DNA of 32,000 bases from an uncultured archaeon (GTDB lineage: Archaea > Asgardarchaeota > Thorarchaeia > Thorarchaeales > Thorarchaeaceae). The stretch is taken from the NCBI GenBank assembly GCA_964354495.1, contig CAYHAA010000001.1:218075-250074 (forward strand), read 5' to 3'. Both the position numbers and the translations under genes were made by a program. Under the pieces are notes generated by a model. That model did not search any database. It saw nothing but the letters and a program-made list of their open reading frames with translations, and was not told where the DNA came from. This document shows, piece by piece, positions 1-5,207 of this stretch. Numbering within the stretch: position 1 is the stretch's first letter; each line of letters starts with the position of its first letter.

Positions 1-439
1 ACAGGAAGCCATTCTTCTTGGCGTATTCCTCTCCTTCCTCTTTGCTCACCGCTCTGCTATCAACGAGGTCTACCTTGTTTGCTACTACGACGAGTGGAAT
101 CTTGTCCTTCAGGTTTTTGAATGCCTCTTCTTTCCAGGCATCCGAGTTAATGAAAGTCCTCCGCCTCGTCACGTCGTAGAGCAGGAGACCACCTCTAGAC
201 CCTCTATAGAAACCCTGCCTGACGAACTCGAAACGCGGCTGACCTGCAAGGTCCCAGATCTGCAGTGTCACATGTGCGTCCAACTCAGGTATGACAAGTC
301 TCTTGACGGAGAAATCAGTGCCAATGGTCCTCTTGTAGTCCGCTTCAAAGTAGTCCTGAGTGAATCTAGTTGTCATGGCAGTCTTGCCGACTGCACCATC
401 ACCGAGCATCACAATCTTGAATCGAAATTCAGCGGACAT
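1..439 (-). CDS. Rab-like small GTPase (Ras superfamily), C-terminus runs off the window start
   Basis: Manual translation from ATG at 439 (alternative in-frame ATG at 454): MSAEFRFKIVMLGDGAVGKTAMTTRFTQDYFEADYKRTIGTDFSVKRLVIPELDAHVTLQIWDLAGQPRFEFVRQGFYRGSRGGLLLYDVTRRRTF...VVVANKVDL. G1 GDGAVGKT, G2 TIGTDF, G3 DLAGQ, G4 NKVD. Not in the supplied ORF track. Confidence 0.95.
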   Translation of the reverse strand, partial: MSAEFRFKIVMLGDGAVGKTAMTTRFTQDYFEADYKRTIGTDFSVKRLVIPELDAHVTLQIWDLAGQPRFEFVRQGFYRGSRGGLLLYDVTRRRTFINSDAWKEEAFKNLKDKIPLVVVANKVDLVDSRAVSKEEGEEYAKKNGFL

Positions 440-478
440 GAGAACGAACTCCATCTTCTTTGAGAGAGGCTTAAGGCA

Positions 479-525
479 TTTAAATCTCTACTTTGAGTCA
501 GAGGACAGGCTCAAACTATTTAATA
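479..525. promoter_or_regulatory. Putative divergent TATA boxes for the GTPase (TTTAAAT 479-485) and roadblock gene (TTTAATA 519-525)
   Basis: AT-rich archaeal TATA-like heptamers at plausible distances from the two divergent starts (439/454 and 575). Confidence 0.4.
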
Positions 526-574
526 AGCAACCACACAATTCGACAAGTACTGCAAGGACTGATGGTGTGTTCAT

Positions 575-958
575 ATGGAACGACCAGATTATCGCGAACT
601 TCCCAAGATTCTCGAGACTATGAATAGAGAGGGCAGCTATTCTGCCTCAGTTCTCGCGCGTGGAAATGGTCTACTTGTTTCATCAGCCACATCCCCCAAG
701 ACTAACCAAGATGTGGTCGCAGCAATGTGCGGGATGATTGCTGATGTTGCTGAGCGAGTTCGAAAGGAGTTGTTTCTGGGAGAGATCAAGGACATCAGTC
801 TTCGTTGTGCAGATGGAAAGGCGGTCTTCAAACGAGTAGGTGCTCGAGGTGATGATATATTGATTATCGGGGCAATCATGGCCCGAGATGTTCGCTATCA
901 CTCCCGGGCAATAGGCAAGGCAACCACAAGAATCCGTATCCTTATGGGGTACAAATGA
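575..958 (+). CDS. Roadblock/LC7 (MglB/LAMTOR-like) domain protein
   Basis: 127 aa; SVLARGNGLLVSS, VAAMCGMIADVAERVRKEL, ISLRCADGKAVF match the roadblock helix/strand pattern. Confidence 0.85.
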   Translation: MERPDYRELPKILETMNREGSYSASVLARGNGLLVSSATSPKTNQDVVAAMCGMIADVAERVRKELFLGEIKDISLRCADGKAVFKRVGARGDDILIIGAIMARDVRYHSRAIGKATTRIRILMGYK

Positions 959-2126: not shown

Positions 2127-2137
2127 AAGACTGGGAT

Positions 2138-2851
2138 GTGAAAACAACGAACAGCTCGGAGAGTACTGCACCGCGACCTCCACGTGCACATCCGATGATA
2201 AGTGATCTTGTGAAGTTCGGCCAGTTGACCCAGATCTCATACATGCTTGTTGGTCCTCTGAGCACTGGAAAGACCACCTATGCCGAAGCCTTTCTTGCCG
2301 AGGGCATTGAGCAGGGATTTCCTGCGATCTTCGTCACAACAGATGTGTCTCCTCGAGTGATTCGTAACGATATGAGCCGCCATGGCTGGGCCATAGAGGC
2401 ACAGGAAGCAGCTGGGCAATTCGTGTTCATCGATGGATACTCTGAGAGAATGGGCGCTCCAAAGAGTGGCTCTGCGAGGTCGCTTGCTAAAGTTGATGAC
2501 ATCAGTGAGCTAGGTATTGTTCTGTCCGATGTCCTTGAAGACGTGGTTGTTGCTCGTATAGTCGTTGATAGTCTCTCCACTCTGATTCTGCACGCAAATC
2601 CAGCTACGATGCCCAGAGCCGTTCAGCGGCTCAGTGGAAGAATAACGCAGAGCTCGCACAGTATTATGTATATCCTAGAAGATGGAGTTCACGACGAAAA
2701 AACCTATGCCACATTCTCTTACCTCGCTGACGCTGTCTTGCGTTTCAGAATCAACGACGCAGAACCGATTGCGAAGCACCAGGTACGCATGGAACGAATG
2801 CGTGGAACCGAGACTTCCCGTGAGTGGCATGACTTCGTCATTGCGCGGTAG
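2138..2851 (+). CDS. Second single-domain KaiC/RAD55-like protein, degenerate ATPase
   Basis: Walker A variant GPLSTGKT, EE replaced by DV (FVTTDVSP), RIVVDSLS, RMRG retained. GTG start at 2138; alternative ATG at 2195. Confidence 0.85.
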   Translation: MKTTNSSESTAPRPPRAHPMISDLVKFGQLTQISYMLVGPLSTGKTTYAEAFLAEGIEQGFPAIFVTTDVSPRVIRNDMSRHGWAIEAQEAAGQFVFIDGYSERMGAPKSGSARSLAKVDDISELGIVLSDVLEDVVVARIVVDSLSTLILHANPATMPRAVQRLSGRITQSSHSIMYILEDGVHDEKTYATFSYLADAVLRFRINDAEPIAKHQVRMERMRGTETSREWHDFVIAR

Positions 2852-2909
2852 TTTTCTGTGAAAGCTTTAAAGGAACAGCAAAATGCAATGCAAATGAGAG
2901 GCGAGACCG

Positions 2910-5207
2910 GTGGAATCCATGCTGCTGACTGCATTGCGAGATATTCTTTGCGTATCCCTCTCTCTGGACGACGGTCTATCGATGATCCAGAGTATCTCAC
3001 CTAGAGATTCTAATGAGTCTGACCTTCTGTTTGACATTGCTCGCGCAATAGAGGAGATTATTCTTCGAAGACCCGGTCTGGCTAGCTCGAAACTAACTGA
3101 GATTGCAGTTCGCCTGTCGTTCGATAGCAATCGCACCCTGCCAGAGTTGCTCATACTTCTTGATACACGATACACGAACAGTGACAGACGCTCAGAGTGT
3201 GAATTGCTTCCTGATATTGAATCTCTCCCAACACTTGTGGACATCCTTGGCGAGTTATCACAGGCAATAACATCGACAATTCGTCTCAATCTTCGCCCGG
3301 TACTACCTTTTTTGACTGATGAAGTCTTATTGACCGTCAATGCCATTCACGATCGAAGACACGACGAAACAACAATACTTGCCCTGCGCGAAGCACATTA
3401 CCTCGCCTGGATTCTAATTGAAGCGGGCTTCTTTGAAGGTGCAGAACTCCTCCTGAATCGAATAATGGAGATTTCTGACGAAGCAGGGCAGAAGGAGCTA
3501 CACTTCGAAGCAACCTTTGATTACGCATGCGTGTTGACCGAACTCGGAATGTACGATTCCGCCCGTGGTATTCTCAACACCTTGGAACAGGAAGCACGCT
3601 CAAGCAATGACACACTCAGGCTTGCGCAAGTGACACTTCAACTGGGAGTCAACGAGACCCGTGATGATTCGATTTCCTATAAGGTTGCAAGGAAGATTGG
3701 AGATGAGGCGGCAGAGCTCTATGACATTGCACTCAAATCGAATCTGGTGAGTCGGGATGAAGTGGGATTGGCGCATCTTGTCATCGGCTCAAGCATCCTG
3801 GCTAATGGCTGGCGGGAGGGTGTGTCTGAGGCAGTTGAGCGGCTCGAGATGGGGCTCAAGATCTACGAGAGTATTGATGACAAGACTCCCCTTCAGCGAC
3901 TTCACGTCTACAAGACACTCTGTGGTCTAGGATTTGCTCATGGACTCATCAATGATCATGGCAGCATGACGAAGGCTATTGAGTACTTGACGCAGGCCGG
4001 AAACATCTTGGAAGAGATTGATGATGTGCTACCTGACATCGAACTGGAGAGGGCCCGGCTAGAACACACAATTGGCTGGTTGTGCCTATCGACAGACAGC
4101 GATGAATTCTGGGAGTCGGGAATTGAAGCCTTCAGACAAGCCGAGAGAATTCGTGACGAGCTCTGGAAAAAGGGGAGCATCTTGGATATTGAACTATTGG
4201 GCACACGAATTGGGCTGGCTCTCTCACTCATGCGAGTTTCAGAGCGTTCCGATTCAGATGACTACCAAGAGCCAATAAGGAACATACTCGTCCAATATAT
4301 CCCCCTCTTTCCGACGGACCAACGTGCCTATGAGGAGATTGCCATTGCCACCTACGACATCGTCTGGCTGATATCTCGTCACGGCGGTAGTCTCTCGCCG
4401 CGATTGCGTCGCCTCCTTGAGGACATTGATAGGATGTTGGTCGATGCGCCTCGGGAGTCTGTCTTTATTCAGAGTGTTTCATTGGTTGTTCCCTACCTCG
4501 AGCAGTCTTGGACGGTTCTTCTTGAACGTTCAATGAGAATGGCAGTTTCCAATAGCGAACTTGCAGATGCTGCCAAGCTGGCGTCAGCCCATTCAATAAC
4601 AAAGATGAACCTTGAATCATTGAGTACCGATCTAGCTCGGCGAGTCCAGATGCCAGTTGATGATGAAGTCCAGCGTGTAGATCCTCTTCTTGCCCAGTAT
4701 TGGGTGGGCCAAACATATCTGATTCAGACAGTCAGAGCATTCTTTGCGAACAAGGACTACTCCGAATTAGCGACAGGACTCTACCGCGCAGCAGTAACAT
4801 TCAGCGATATTCTCGACCTCCAGACTGACTCTGGCGAATCTGTCGAGTTCATCAAAGCAACTTCTGCGTCACTATCACAGGTCCTACGCAGGTTTGCATT
4901 GACCCTTGAGAATCATTATGCCGCATATATTGATAGAGCAATCATCTCAGGAACTCCGCATTCAGTCGACGAAGACCAATACGGCTTCATCCTATCAGAC
5001 GACTGGATGGGACTGATCAAGATTGCAAATGCGTACCTTCAGATGGTTGAACAGTCAGAGATGGTCGAAGCGCAACCATACCTCAACGCTGTCTTTTCGA
5101 ATGTCAATCGAGCGCTAAAAATGATGGATAGCATATCTCTTGTCGATAGAAGGGTCCTAGCACCAATTGGTGCTGTGATGAACAGTCGCTTCTATCTTCG
5201 TATGTGA
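2910..5207 (+). CDS. Large all-helical TPR-like hypothetical protein
   Basis: 765 aa ORF; TPR-like segments such as FDYACVLTELGMYDSARGIL and LCGLGFAHGLINDHGSMTKAIEYLTQAGNILEEI. No obvious TM helix. Confidence 0.7.
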   Translation: MESMLLTALRDILCVSLSLDDGLSMIQSISPRDSNESDLLFDIARAIEEIILRRPGLASSKLTEIAVRLSFDSNRTLPELLILLDTRYTNSDRRSECELLPDIESLPTLVDILGELSQAITSTIRLNLRPVLPFLTDEVLLTVNAIHDRRHDETTILALREAHYLAWILIEAGFFEGAELLLNRIMEISDEAGQKELHFEATFDYACVLTELGMYDSARGILNTLEQEARSSNDTLRLAQVTLQLGVNETRDDSISYKVARKIGDEAAELYDIALKSNLVSRDEVGLAHLVIGSSILANGWREGVSEAVERLEMGLKIYESIDDKTPLQRLHVYKTLCGLGFAHGLINDHGSMTKAIEYLTQAGNILEEIDDVLPDIELERARLEHTIGWLCLSTDSDEFWESGIEAFRQAERIRDELWKKGSILDIELLGTRIGLALSLMRVSERSDSDDYQEPIRNILVQYIPLFPTDQRAYEEIAIATYDIVWLISRHGGSLSPRLRRLLEDIDRMLVDAPRESVFIQSVSLVVPYLEQSWTVLLERSMRMAVSNSELADAAKLASAHSITKMNLESLSTDLARRVQMPVDDEVQRVDPLLAQYWVGQTYLIQTVRAFFANKDYSELATGLYRAAVTFSDILDLQTDSGESVEFIKATSASLSQVLRRFALTLENHYAAYIDRAIISGTPHSVDEDQYGFILSDDWMGLIKIANAYLQMVEQSEMVEAQPYLNAVFSNVNRALKMMDSISLVDRRVLAPIGAVMNSRFYLRM

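What the first reader, a model, noticed from the sequence alone, without database searches (positions are those of the whole stretch)
1..5207. Candidate redox-to-GTPase signalling locus: Rab, roadblock, Trx, KaiC x2 and TPR scaffold
Seen: six signalling-type genes are contiguous; five are co-oriented with gaps of 92, -1, 11 and 58 nt, and the GTPase is divergent across 135 nt. Established: roadblock proteins regulate small GTPases (MglB-MglA, Ragulator-Rag), and bacterial conservons couple a sensor, roadblock and GTPase. Inference: here a Trx/KaiC pair may replace the kinase as input, with the TPR protein as scaffold. I do not recall this combination being described.
Basis: inference. Interest (0 to 1): 0.75.

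Follow-up and report, generated by a model that had tools for sequence, protein, structure and literature searches.

The report
Thorarchaeal GTPase-roadblock beside KaiC-thioredoxin module
In Thorarchaeota (Asgard archaea), the already crystallised Rab-like GTPase and a roadblock regulator gene sit, across the whole order, next to a thioredoxin and two KaiC-type ATPase genes; this link between a G-protein switch and a clock-type ATPase module does not appear in the papers I could search, and it remains circumstantial.

Summary
All six genes, their families and the stated gaps are real.

- **GTPase:** it is the orthologue of crystallised Thor-Rab (PDB 7ezb, E 8e-91).
- **Roadblock protein:** it models as an MglB-type fold.
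- **Thioredoxin:** it keeps an invariant CxFCP motif and the cis-Pro.
- **KaiC pair:** KaiC1 is an intact KaiC CI-like ATPase. KaiC2 keeps Walker A and B but has lost the catalytic Glu-Glu.
- **765-aa protein:** it models as a TPR-like solenoid.

The five-gene core (GTPase, roadblock, Trx, KaiC1, KaiC2) is kept in the whole family and in the sister family. In the sister family the GTPase is co-directional and the TPR gene is absent. A complex model places the Trx active-site face on the KaiC1 loop equivalent to the KaiB-binding B-loop (score 0.76, best control 0.00).

Four points count against a single pathway:
- Unrelated flanking genes are equally syntenic.
- One species has split the GTPase from the roadblock gene.
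- Each unit seems to have its own promoter, and the roadblock-Trx gap holds a genome-unique invariant 17-mer.
- Nothing tests contact between the two modules.

KaiC plus a KaiB-like thioredoxin is already known in archaea; its coupling to a GTPase-roadblock pair is not in the searchable literature. This scan had already noted the same cluster in other Thorarchaeota genomes.

Verdict: a new variant of known kinds, of moderate interest.

The parts
1..454 (-). Rab/Ras-like small GTPase, orthologue of crystallised Thor-Rab. Only the N-terminal 151 of 189 aa lie in the window. The likely start is Met6 at position 439.
   Evidence: Pfam Ras 1.4e-41. PDB 7ezb 'Thorarchaeota Rab' E 7.9e-91. Full ORF L021:11885-12454(-). 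P-loop GDGAVGKT, DLAGQ, NKVD, Arg in YKRTIG, and no C-terminal Cys.
478..485 (-). TATA-like box ATTTAAAT, candidate GTPase promoter
   Evidence: Conserved TTTAAAT/CTTAAA block in the alignment of 11 orthologous divergent gaps; sequence read.
519..525 (+). Canonical archaeal TATA box TTTAATA, about 50 nt upstream of the roadblock ATG
   Evidence: Kept in all 11 aligned orthologous gaps, one of them TTTATTA; sequence read.
575..958 (+). Roadblock/LC7 protein of MglB type, 127 aa
   Evidence: Pfam Robl_LC7 30.8 bits, above the cut-off of 23. AF2 pLDDT 86.9 with an alpha-beta-alpha fold. Foldseek: MK-D1 Roadblock3 9jue TM 0.83-0.91, MglB 6izw/6hjm TM 0.83-0.86, LAMTOR2.
994..1010 (+). Invariant 17-mer TCAAAACATTCAAGTGA in the roadblock-Trx gap: candidate internal promoter/operator or leader element
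   Evidence: 25 of 32 distinct orthologous gaps keep it with at most 2 mismatches while the flanks do not align. It is unique in the genome. Its distance to the Trx start is fixed; its distance to the roadblock stop varies.
1051..1380 (+). Small CxxC thioredoxin (Mj0307-like) with an acidic N-terminal and a basic C-terminal tail; predicted partner of KaiC1
   Evidence: Thioredoxin_3 2.3e-08; KaiB below cut-off. PDB 1fo5 E 6e-14. C-x-F-C-P and the A-L-P cis-Pro loop are invariant in 15 orthologues, including the sister family. AGGAG 7 nt before the GTG start.
1380..2126 (+). KaiC1: single-domain, intact KaiC-type ATPase most like the CI domain; start overlaps the Trx stop (TGATG)
   Evidence: PF06745 3.9e-72. 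183 bits to the first (CI) domain of KaiC 8zn5, against 75 bits to its second domain. Walker A GKAGTGKS, TLEE and Walker B kept. No fused long form above 44% identity.
2138..2851 (+). KaiC2: diverged KaiC-like ATPase, probably catalytically impaired (iKaiC-like)
   Evidence: PF06745 2.6e-28 and DUF7504. Nearest structure is PH0284, 2dr3. Walker A and B are kept, but the Glu-Glu is replaced by Asp-Val ('VTTDVSP', invariant in 14 orthologues).
2910..5207 (+). 765-aa TPR-like alpha-solenoid, specific to this family (absent from the sister family's cluster)
   Evidence: AF2 pLDDT 86.8, pTM 0.74, all helical. Foldseek: LGN TPR TMt 0.72, Ctr9, Ski3. Atlas TPR_12 proteins. Found in 34 of 36 family genomes and in none of 24 outside. 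Only 3 full-length representative clusters among 1.84 billion proteins.

Best explanation
This is an order-wide conserved gene neighbourhood of Thorarchaeota that joins two signalling modules.

**Module 1.** This is the Rab-like GTPase Thor-Rab plus an MglB-type roadblock protein. Thor-Rab has a slow intrinsic GTPase in print. The roadblock protein is its most likely cognate regulator, either as a GAP or as an exchange platform.

**Module 2.** This is a KaiC-type ATPase assembly. It comprises an intact CI-like KaiC1, a degenerate partner KaiC2, and a redox-active CxxC thioredoxin. The thioredoxin is translated in step with KaiC1. In the model it docks its active-site face on the KaiC1 loop that corresponds to the KaiB-binding B-loop.

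**Proposed working.** The ATP and redox state of the KaiC1/KaiC2-Trx complex is passed through the roadblock protein to the GTP/GDP state of Thor-Rab. In this family a lineage-specific TPR solenoid was added as a scaffold.

**Shown:** gene content, motifs, folds and conservation.
**Supported by a model only:** Trx-KaiC1 binding.
**Inferred:** roadblock acting on Thor-Rab, KaiC1-KaiC2 assembly, redox gating, and any link between the two modules.
For: **Conservation in the family.** Across the family, 13 loci from 10 genera keep the order GTPase | roadblock, Trx, KaiC1, KaiC2, TPR. Orthologues were found in 34/36, 68/76, 71/85 and 71/85 family genomes for TPR, KaiC2, KaiC1 and roadblock.

**Sister family.** G037 and four further contigs from other assemblies have GTPase, roadblock, Trx, KaiC1 and KaiC2 all co-directional. 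By the called genes the gaps are 67, 66, -1 and 32 nt. There is no WD40 orthologue and no TPR gene. The GTPase-roadblock-KaiC adjacency therefore survived an inversion and a change of the outer neighbour.

**Trx-KaiC1 coupling.** The stop/start overlap is kept in 12 of 13 loci.

**Complex model of KaiC1 plus Trx.** The score is 0.76 and the best of 3 controls is 0.00. That mark was reached by 58 of 80 solved complexes and 2 of 110 mismatched pairs. The runs agree in at least 97% of contacts, and the partner's pLDDT is at least 78. The interface covers KaiC1 94-124, including SFDLSGL, and Trx 28-31 (CxxC) plus 72-75 (cis-Pro loop).

**Background rate.** The genome has only these two KaiC genes. 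Of 20 other Asgard KaiC-like loci, one had a Ras-like GTPase and one a roadblock gene within 8 kb.

**Independent KaiC-GTPase clusters.** Family f12 and a Thor paralogous cluster each hold a Ras-like GTPase inside a multi-KaiC/GvpD-like/REC operon. Family f19 has a roadblock gene of the same subfamily next to an HTH-KaiC fusion.

Against: - **Synteny is not specific.** The convergent EF-2 paralogue and the hexapeptide transferase are kept next to KaiC2 in both families too. Part of the conservation is therefore inertia.
- **The GTPase has a second fixed neighbour.** Within the family it is also always convergent with a WD40 gene, mostly with a HEAT-repeat gene as well.
- **One break in linkage.** In species G030 the breakpoint lies exactly between the GTPase and the roadblock gene. 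The GTPase travelled with the WD40/HEAT block.
- **Probably separate promoters.** The roadblock and GTPase genes each have a TATA box, and the Trx unit has its own conserved element.
- **No trace outside the order.** The nearest KaiC1 and roadblock homologues there lack the association.
- **The Trx-KaiC1 pass may be remembered.** Solved KaiB-CI complexes exist, so the model may be reproducing their likeness (caveat).
- **The bridging step is untested.** No test was made of roadblock-GTPase, roadblock-KaiC or KaiC1-KaiC2 contact.
Confidence: 0.4

Rival explanations
1. There are two independent systems in inherited synteny. Thor-Rab works with its WD40 and HEAT-repeat neighbours in a coat-like or membrane function. 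The roadblock-Trx-KaiC-TPR row is a separate KaiC 'hub'. Their adjacency has no functional meaning.
For: The GTPase is convergent with the WD40 gene in every family locus examined, and it moved with that block in G030. Flanking housekeeping-type genes are as syntenic as the cluster itself. The promoters are separate. Tran et al. report that MK-D1 GTPases are generally not in operons with roadblock genes.
Against: The sister family has no WD40 orthologue, yet keeps the GTPase directly upstream of and co-directional with roadblock-Trx-KaiC. The divergent promoters share one compact region of 120-135 nt. KaiC-GTPase clusters recur independently.
Confidence: 0.3
2. The roadblock protein is an adaptor or subunit of the KaiC-type ATPase module and not a GTPase regulator here. 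The module's output is transcriptional through AsnC-type HTH proteins, and the GTPase is a bystander.
For: A roadblock gene of the same subfamily lies next to an HTH_AsnC-KaiC fusion in family f19. The nearest outside KaiC1 homologue sits 13 nt downstream of an AsnC-type gene. Another roadblock gene lies directly upstream of radA, a RecA-superfamily ATPase, in this genome. An AsnC-HTH gene lies at 7944-8564. The unique 17-mer could be an operator.
Against: The roadblock model is closest to MglB and to Asgard roadblock dimers, whose known partners are GTPases. The roadblock gene is back-to-back or in line with the GTPase in both families. The AsnC gene in the window is separated from the cluster by two unrelated genes.
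Confidence: 0.15
3. The thioredoxin is an ordinary disulfide reductase that happens to be co-translated with KaiC1. There is no KaiB-like docking and no redox signal.
For: It has full thioredoxin hallmarks (CxxC, cis-Pro, Thioredoxin_3 above cut-off, 1fo5 at 6e-14). The KaiB model scores below its cut-off. The B-loop-like segment of KaiC1 holds no cysteine.
Against: The stop/start overlap with KaiC1 is kept across two families. The complex model scores 0.76 against a best control of 0.00, a mark reached by 58 of 80 solved complexes and 2 of 110 mismatched pairs, and it buries the CxxC face on KaiC1. The genome has other thioredoxins. The pairing of KaiC with a KaiB-like thioredoxin-family gene is recurrent in archaea (PMC4858521).
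Confidence: 0.1

Closest known systems
MglA/MglB polarity switch (Thermus thermophilus, Myxococcus xanthus; PDB 3t12, 6izw)
   Same: A small Ras-superfamily GTPase is encoded next to a roadblock-fold protein. The roadblock model superposes on MglB at TM 0.83-0.86. The GTPase keeps the switch-I Arg (Thor-Rab Arg37, MglA Arg53) and the catalytic Gln.
   Different: The GTPase is Rab/Ras-like, not MglA-like (closest to Rab2, Rab14 and Rab11). The genes are divergent in this family. No GAP activity has been shown. The pair is joined to a KaiC-type module, which Mgl systems lack.
Thor-Rab (PDB 7ezb/7ezd/7eze; Tran et al. 2024, PMC10933270)
   Same: The window's GTPase is its orthologue (E 7.9e-91 over 174 residues). 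Its C-terminus is likewise short and lacks Cys.
   Different: The paper treats Thor-Rab alone. It states that matching Asgard GTPases to regulators from genome layout is difficult. The genomic partners seen here are not discussed there (0 mentions of KaiC or thioredoxin).
Archaeal KaiC-like ATPase hubs with a KaiB-like thioredoxin-family partner and inactivated KaiC (Makarova et al. 2016, PMC4858521; Makarova, Galperin and Koonin 2017, mBio, not held here)
   Same: The cluster has a single-domain KaiC-like ATPase, a thioredoxin-family gene just upstream, and a degenerate KaiC paralogue. [quoted passage not shown] The 'iKaiC' concept is cited in PMC5847659.
   Different: Here the partner keeps a full CxxC active site. 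The module is joined to a Rab-like GTPase, a roadblock protein and a TPR solenoid. I could not read the 2017 paper to check whether GTPase links are mentioned in it.
Cyanobacterial KaiB-KaiC (fold-switched KaiB or the SasA N-domain on the CI B-loop; CI-domain chains 5jwo/5jwq/5jwr)
   Same: The gene order is small thioredoxin-fold protein, then KaiC. KaiC1 resembles CI (183 bits) and keeps the FDLSGL segment. The modelled interface falls on that loop.
   Different: KaiC is split into two genes and no fused form was found. KaiC2 is not CII-like (its best match is PH0284). There is no KaiA. The partner is a true thioredoxin that scores below the KaiB cut-off. Nothing indicates a clock.
Streptomyces conservons (CvnA-D)
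   Same: The logic is the same: an ATP-using input protein, a roadblock protein, a small accessory protein and a small GTPase are encoded together.
   Different: There is no histidine-kinase-like CvnA, no DUF742 CvnC, and the GTPase is Rab-like. This is analogy only.
Ragulator-Rag (LAMTOR roadblock dimers with Rag GTPases)
   Same: A roadblock-fold protein is related to LAMTOR2/p14 (TM 0.65-0.74) and lies next to a small GTPase. Both carry the idea of metabolic-state input.
   Different: The GTPase has no C-terminal roadblock domain (189 aa). There is a single roadblock gene and no LAMTOR1-like tether.

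Membership tests
Ras superfamily, Rab-like (Thor-Rab orthologue) | G1-G5 motifs with the catalytic Gln | tested here: met
   GDGAVGKT, T in YKRTIG, DLAGQ, NKVD, SSAL; Pfam Ras 1.4e-41.
Ras superfamily, Rab-like (Thor-Rab orthologue) | Orthology to the crystallised Thor-Rab | tested here: met
   7ezb E 7.9e-91, 305.9 bits over residues 6-179.
Eukaryotic Rab proper | C-terminal prenylatable cysteines | tested here: not met
   The full protein ends ...PTNPAFQG, and none of 12 orthologues has a C-terminal Cys. The same is stated for Thor-Rab.
Roadblock/LC7, MglB type | Pfam model above its cut-off, and an alpha-beta-alpha sandwich with N- and C-terminal helices | tested here: met
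   30.8 bits against 23. Model elements H8-20, five strands, H45-65, H110-124. MglB TM 0.83-0.86 and 9jue TM up to 0.91.
Roadblock/LC7, MglB type | Homodimer that accelerates GTP hydrolysis of the neighbouring GTPase | not testable with these tools
This needs biochemistry.
KaiC family (PF06745) | RecA-like core with Walker A and B | tested here: met
   KaiC1 scores 242.8 bits and KaiC2 99.4 bits; motifs.
KaiC family (PF06745) | Catalytic Glu-Glu after strand 2 | tested here: inconclusive
   KaiC1 has TLEE (met). KaiC2 has TTDV, invariant in 14 orthologues (not met).
Bona fide circadian KaiC | Fused CI-CII double domain with Ser/Thr phosphosites in CII | tested here: not met
   There are two separate single-domain genes, and no fused relative above 44% identity. 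KaiC2's best match is PH0284, not CII. By my reading of the alignments, KaiC2 has Ser-Tyr at the aligned position, untested.
KaiB | Match to the KaiB model above its cut-off | tested here: not met
   24.1 bits against 27 in the window, and 26.2 bits in the sister family.
KaiB | Binds the B-loop of a CI-type domain | tested here: inconclusive
   The model scores 0.76 against a best control of 0.00 (58 of 80 solved complexes and 2 of 110 mismatched pairs reached this mark). The interface falls on KaiC1 94-124. It may reflect likeness to solved KaiB-CI complexes.
Thioredoxin (small archaeal Mj0307 type) | CxxC active site, cis-Pro loop, thioredoxin model above its cut-off | tested here: met
   C-A-F-C-P and A-L-P are invariant in 15 sequences. 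Thioredoxin_3 scores 34.4 bits against 24.8. 1fo5 E 6e-14.
Conservon (CvnABCD) | Histidine-kinase-like CvnA and a DUF742 CvnC beside the roadblock protein and GTPase | tested here: not met
   No such Pfam families occur in any of the six proteins.
TPR proteins | Sequence match to a TPR model above its cut-off | tested here: not met
   TPR_19 scores 19.3 bits against 25. The profile search gave only local repeat hits around residues 300-430.
TPR proteins | Helical-hairpin superhelix fold | tested here: met
   AF2 pLDDT 86.8 with 33 helices. LGN TPR TMt 0.72 at rmsd 5.5; Ctr9 and Ski3 also match. TPR_12 clusters at TM 0.45-0.55.
Ragulator-Rag | GTPase with a C-terminal roadblock domain, and a roadblock heterodimer scaffold | tested here: not met
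   The GTPase is a 189-aa single domain, and the locus has one roadblock gene.

The most novel reading that the evidence does not exclude
Thorarchaeota use a split, KaiBC-like ATPase switch to set the nucleotide state of a Rab-like GTPase through an MglB-type roadblock protein. The KaiB-position partner of that switch is still a redox-active thioredoxin. This would be an archaeal route from metabolic or redox state to a G protein, working like Ragulator-Rag. The thioredoxin would be a living intermediate between thioredoxins and KaiB.
Probability: 0.2. Interest if true: 0.85.

Novelty: new variant of a known kind. Interest (0 to 1): 0.55.

Why it matters
Asgard archaea encode dozens of eukaryote-like small GTPases. 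Almost none can be matched to a regulator or an input, and Tran et al. 2024 say genome layout rarely helps.

This locus gives Thor-Rab, the one Asgard Rab-like GTPase with a crystal structure, three things:
- a specific candidate regulator, the neighbouring roadblock protein;
- a candidate upstream module built on KaiC, the ATPase family proposed as the main archaeal signalling hub;
- a possible redox entry point.

All the proteins are small and soluble-looking, and Thor-Rab has already been purified, so the idea can be tested directly in vitro. If the link is real, it shows how G-protein switches were wired to cellular state in the lineage closest to eukaryotes. If it is not, the locus still pairs a CI-like KaiC with a CxxC thioredoxin at the KaiB position, which bears on how KaiB arose.

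Tried and rejected
- **Expression:** no RNA holder was listed for window 1-5300, so no reads were laid. Nothing can be said on expression.
- **Known RNA in the gaps:** the Rfam scan of 1-5400 gave only a sub-threshold sR2 hit (20.9 bits against 42).
- **Makarova et al. 2017 (mBio):** the paper is not held under its DOI or its PMC id. I could not check whether it mentions GTPase links.
- **Single-sequence and profile searches of the 5.8-billion-protein set with KaiC1 and Trx:** these returned only Thorarchaeota orthologues in the top 120. They confirmed the taxon but gave no outside context.
- **A fused KaiC1-KaiC2 form:** none was found. The longer relatives are ordinary double-domain KaiC at 44% identity or less.
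- **Full-length relatives of the TPR protein outside the family:** none were found among 1.84 billion representatives or in 24 other Asgard genomes.
- **Co-loss test:** family genomes lacking the roadblock and KaiC genes also lack the Thor-Rab orthologue. Because the genes are adjacent, a single missing contig explains this, so I rejected it as evidence.
- **The second roadblock-RecA-type adjacency (roadblock gene upstream of radA):** noted but not pursued.
- **A hairpin between the 17-mer and the Shine-Dalgarno region:** the complementary bases are not conserved in the alignment, so I rejected it.
- **Genus g4:** G201 shows a roadblock fragment at a contig end beside the GTPase and a full copy beside KaiC on another contig. 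I could not tell duplication from strain mixture.

Full report
**What is in the sequence.** The window is G000:C1:218075-250074 of a 3.3-Mb, 97.7%-complete genome. Database names on near-identical proteins place it in Candidatus Thorarchaeota. The divergent gap is 135 nt if the GTPase starts at Met6 (position 439), which is where most orthologues start. Pfam confirms Ras, Robl_LC7, Thioredoxin_3 and two KaiC (PF06745) proteins. The 765-aa protein gets only a sub-threshold TPR_19 hit. The GTPase is cut by the window edge; the whole gene encodes 189 residues and has no C-terminal cysteine.

**The GTPase and the roadblock protein.** The GTPase is the orthologue of 'Thorarchaeota Rab', PDB 7ezb (E 7.9e-91). 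It has all G motifs, the catalytic Gln and the switch-I Arg. [quoted passage not shown] The roadblock protein models confidently (pLDDT 86.9). Its alpha-beta-alpha fold is closest to MK-D1 Roadblock3, to MglB in complex with MglA, and to LAMTOR2.

**The thioredoxin.** It is a real thioredoxin. Its best solved relative is the small Methanocaldococcus thioredoxin 1fo5 (6e-14). The C-x-F-C-P motif and the cis-Pro loop are invariant in 15 orthologues from two families. The KaiB model scores 24-26 bits, just under its cut-off.

**The two KaiC proteins.** KaiC1 is a single-domain KaiC. Its best match is to the CI half of double-domain KaiC (183 bits, against 75 bits to the CII half). Walker A, Walker B and the Glu-Glu pair are intact. 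KaiC2 keeps Walker A and B but has Asp-Val where the two catalytic glutamates should be. This replacement is invariant in 14 orthologues, and the nearest structure is PH0284. KaiC2 therefore looks like an 'inactivated KaiC' in the sense used by Makarova and colleagues (cited in PMC5847659). No fused KaiC1-KaiC2 form exists in the protein collection.

**The 765-aa protein.** It models as a long helical-hairpin solenoid (pLDDT 86.8, pTM 0.74). The model matches LGN/Pins TPR, Ctr9, Ski3 and TPR_12 proteins. 'TPR-like scaffold' is acceptable as a description of the fold.

**Conservation.** The full row is kept in 13 loci from 10 genera of the family. That row is GTPase, roadblock, Trx, KaiC1, KaiC2 and TPR, then the convergent EF-2 paralogue, a hexapeptide transferase and an AsnC-type gene. 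Orthologues were found in most family genomes: 34/36, 68/76, 71/85 and 71/85 for TPR, KaiC2, KaiC1 and roadblock.

The decisive comparison is the sister family of the same order. There the order is ParA/Mrp, GTPase, roadblock, Trx, KaiC1, KaiC2, all on one strand with short gaps, followed directly by the EF-2 paralogue. The same layout appears on four further contigs from other assemblies and samples. That genome has no orthologue of the family's WD40 neighbour and no TPR gene. Three conclusions follow:
- The five-gene core is order-wide and survived an inversion of the GTPase and a change of its outer neighbour.
- The TPR protein is a later, family-specific addition. It has no full-length relatives among 1.84 billion representative proteins.
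- The EF-2 paralogue and the hexapeptide gene are equally conserved neighbours, so synteny at this depth is not in itself proof of function.

**Limits of the linkage.** Within the family the GTPase is also always convergent with a 421-aa WD40 gene. Usually there is also a HEAT-repeat gene and a second Rab-like GTPase. In species G030 the break lies exactly between the GTPase and the roadblock gene, and the GTPase went with the WD40/HEAT block to another contig. In G028, 1.2 kb is inserted between them.

Outside the order, the closest KaiC1 homologue (47% identity) sits behind an AsnC-type regulator, with no Trx, roadblock or GTPase gene. Eighteen loci of the closest outside roadblock homologues have no GTPase within 7 kb.

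**Background and independent cases.** This genome has only these two KaiC genes, against 11 roadblock genes and about 23 Ras-like GTPases. Of 20 other Asgard KaiC-like loci, one had a Ras-like GTPase and one a roadblock gene within 8 kb. Generic KaiC genes are therefore not GTPase neighbours. Two further cluster types do join the families:
- Family f12 and one Thorarchaeota genus have a multi-KaiC/GvpD-like/receiver operon with a Ras-like GTPase embedded in it.
- Family f19 has a roadblock gene of the same subfamily next to an HTH-KaiC fusion.

These cases raise the prior for a KaiC to G-protein connection in Asgard archaea, but only modestly.

**Transcription signals.** The divergent gap holds two conserved TATA-type boxes, ATTTAAAT at 478-485 and TTTAATA at 519-525. 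The second lies about 50 nt before the roadblock ATG.

The roadblock-Trx gap holds no canonical TATA. It does hold an invariant 17-mer, TCAAAACATTCAAGTGA (994-1010). Twenty-five of 32 distinct orthologous gaps keep it with at most two mismatches, while the surrounding sequence cannot be aligned. It occurs once in the genome. Its spacing to the Trx start is fixed and equals the TATA-to-ATG spacing of the roadblock gene, whereas its distance from the roadblock stop varies from 4 to 53 nt.

I read it as an internal promoter or operator, or else a leader element, of the Trx-KaiC1-KaiC2-TPR unit. It argues against a single operon, but not against a functional neighbourhood. No RNA data could be found.

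**Trx and KaiC1.** The Trx stop overlaps the KaiC1 start in 12 of 13 loci and in the sister family. The score was 0.76 and the best of three controls 0.00. That mark was reached by 58 of 80 solved complexes and 2 of 110 mismatched pairs. The runs agree in at least 97% of contacts, and the partner's pLDDT is at least 78.

The interface on KaiC1 is residues 94-124. In the alignment to KaiC this is the segment holding FDLSGL, which is the B-loop region where fold-switched KaiB and the SasA N-domain bind CI (established knowledge; CI-domain chains 5jwo/5jwq/5jwr appear). On the Trx side the contacts include 28-31 (the CxxC) and 72-75 (the cis-Pro loop), which together form the substrate groove.

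The pass may partly reflect likeness to solved KaiB-CI complexes. It supports binding but does not show it. The KaiC1 loop has no cysteine, so any redox effect would act through the state of the Trx itself. That step is inference.

[quoted passage not shown] The Trx-KaiC half is therefore a known kind. Thor-Rab and Asgard roadblock structures are published, but without this genomic context. That paper says GTPases and roadblock genes are generally not in operons in MK-D1, and that matching them is difficult. No paper in the library holds KaiC together with Asgard and small GTPase, or KaiC together with MglA/MglB. The 2017 KaiC-hub paper could not be read.

Earlier notes of this scan describe the same cluster in other Thorarchaeota genomes. 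They also mention similar KaiC/GTPase/roadblock cassettes elsewhere; I did not verify those.

**Verdict.** There is no evidence yet for the step that joins the two halves. The TPR protein is not part of the core, and the conservon comparison is analogy only.

My estimates:
- about 0.65 that the roadblock protein regulates Thor-Rab;
- about 0.7 that Trx binds KaiC1;
- about 0.4 that all five genes form one pathway.

I class it as a new variant of known kinds, with interest 0.55.

Noticed in passing
window 994-1010: A genome-unique, invariant 17-mer (TCAAAACATTCAAGTGA) lies at fixed spacing upstream of the Trx start. It is conserved across genera while its flanks do not align, and it is not a canonical TATA box.
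   Followed up: partly
L075:4349-5901 (G000:C1:559349-560901): Another roadblock gene lies 83 nt upstream of, and co-directional with, radA (Rad51 family, 1.8e-90). This is a second roadblock-RecA-superfamily adjacency in the same genome.
   Followed up: no
L066:4778-9587; also L067, L070, L072, L074: In Asgard family f12 (genus g21) and in one Thorarchaeota genome there is a cluster of two tandem degenerate KaiC-like genes, divergent from a KaiC-like gene, a Ras-like GTPase, a GvpD-like KaiC (P-loop plus bR2) and a receiver domain. Genus g28 has the same cluster without the GTPase.
   Followed up: partly
L120:7061-8770 and L121:5441-7365: In Asgard family f19, a roadblock gene of the same subfamily lies a few hundred nt (about 390 nt in L120, about 600 nt in L121) upstream of a KaiC-like gene; in L120 Pfam shows it to be an HTH_AsnC-KaiC fusion protein (297 aa). 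The closest outside KaiC1 homologue (L077:8070-8795) lies 13 nt downstream of an AsnC-type gene.
   Followed up: partly
L087:8013-10416: In Asgard family f26, KaiC, a diacylglycerol-kinase-like (YegS) gene and a Ras-like GTPase are co-directional, with gaps of 43 and 30 nt.
   Followed up: no
L021:8785-11883 (upstream of the window): A second Rab-like GTPase, a 406-aa HEAT-like gene and a 421-aa WD40 gene lie between it and the window's GTPase. This block is syntenic across the family and moved as a unit with the GTPase in species G030 (L098).
   Followed up: partly
window 5215-7311 (-): An EF-2/EF-G paralogue (698 aa) is convergent with the TPR gene, only 7 nt away. It is kept next to KaiC2 in the sister family as well.
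   Followed up: no
window 7319-8101 and 7944-8564 (-): The hexapeptide-transferase ORF and the AsnC-HTH ORF overlap by 158 nt as listed. One of the two starts is probably further downstream.
   Followed up: no
L099 and G201:C114:4348-4728: In genus g4, one genome shows a roadblock fragment at a contig end beside the GTPase and a full roadblock copy beside Trx-KaiC on another contig. This is either a duplication or a strain mixture.
   Followed up: partly
L077:12937-13341: A profilin-like gene (Pfam Profilin 24.9 bits, just under the cut-off) lies near the KaiC/AsnC pair of genome G042.
   Followed up: no
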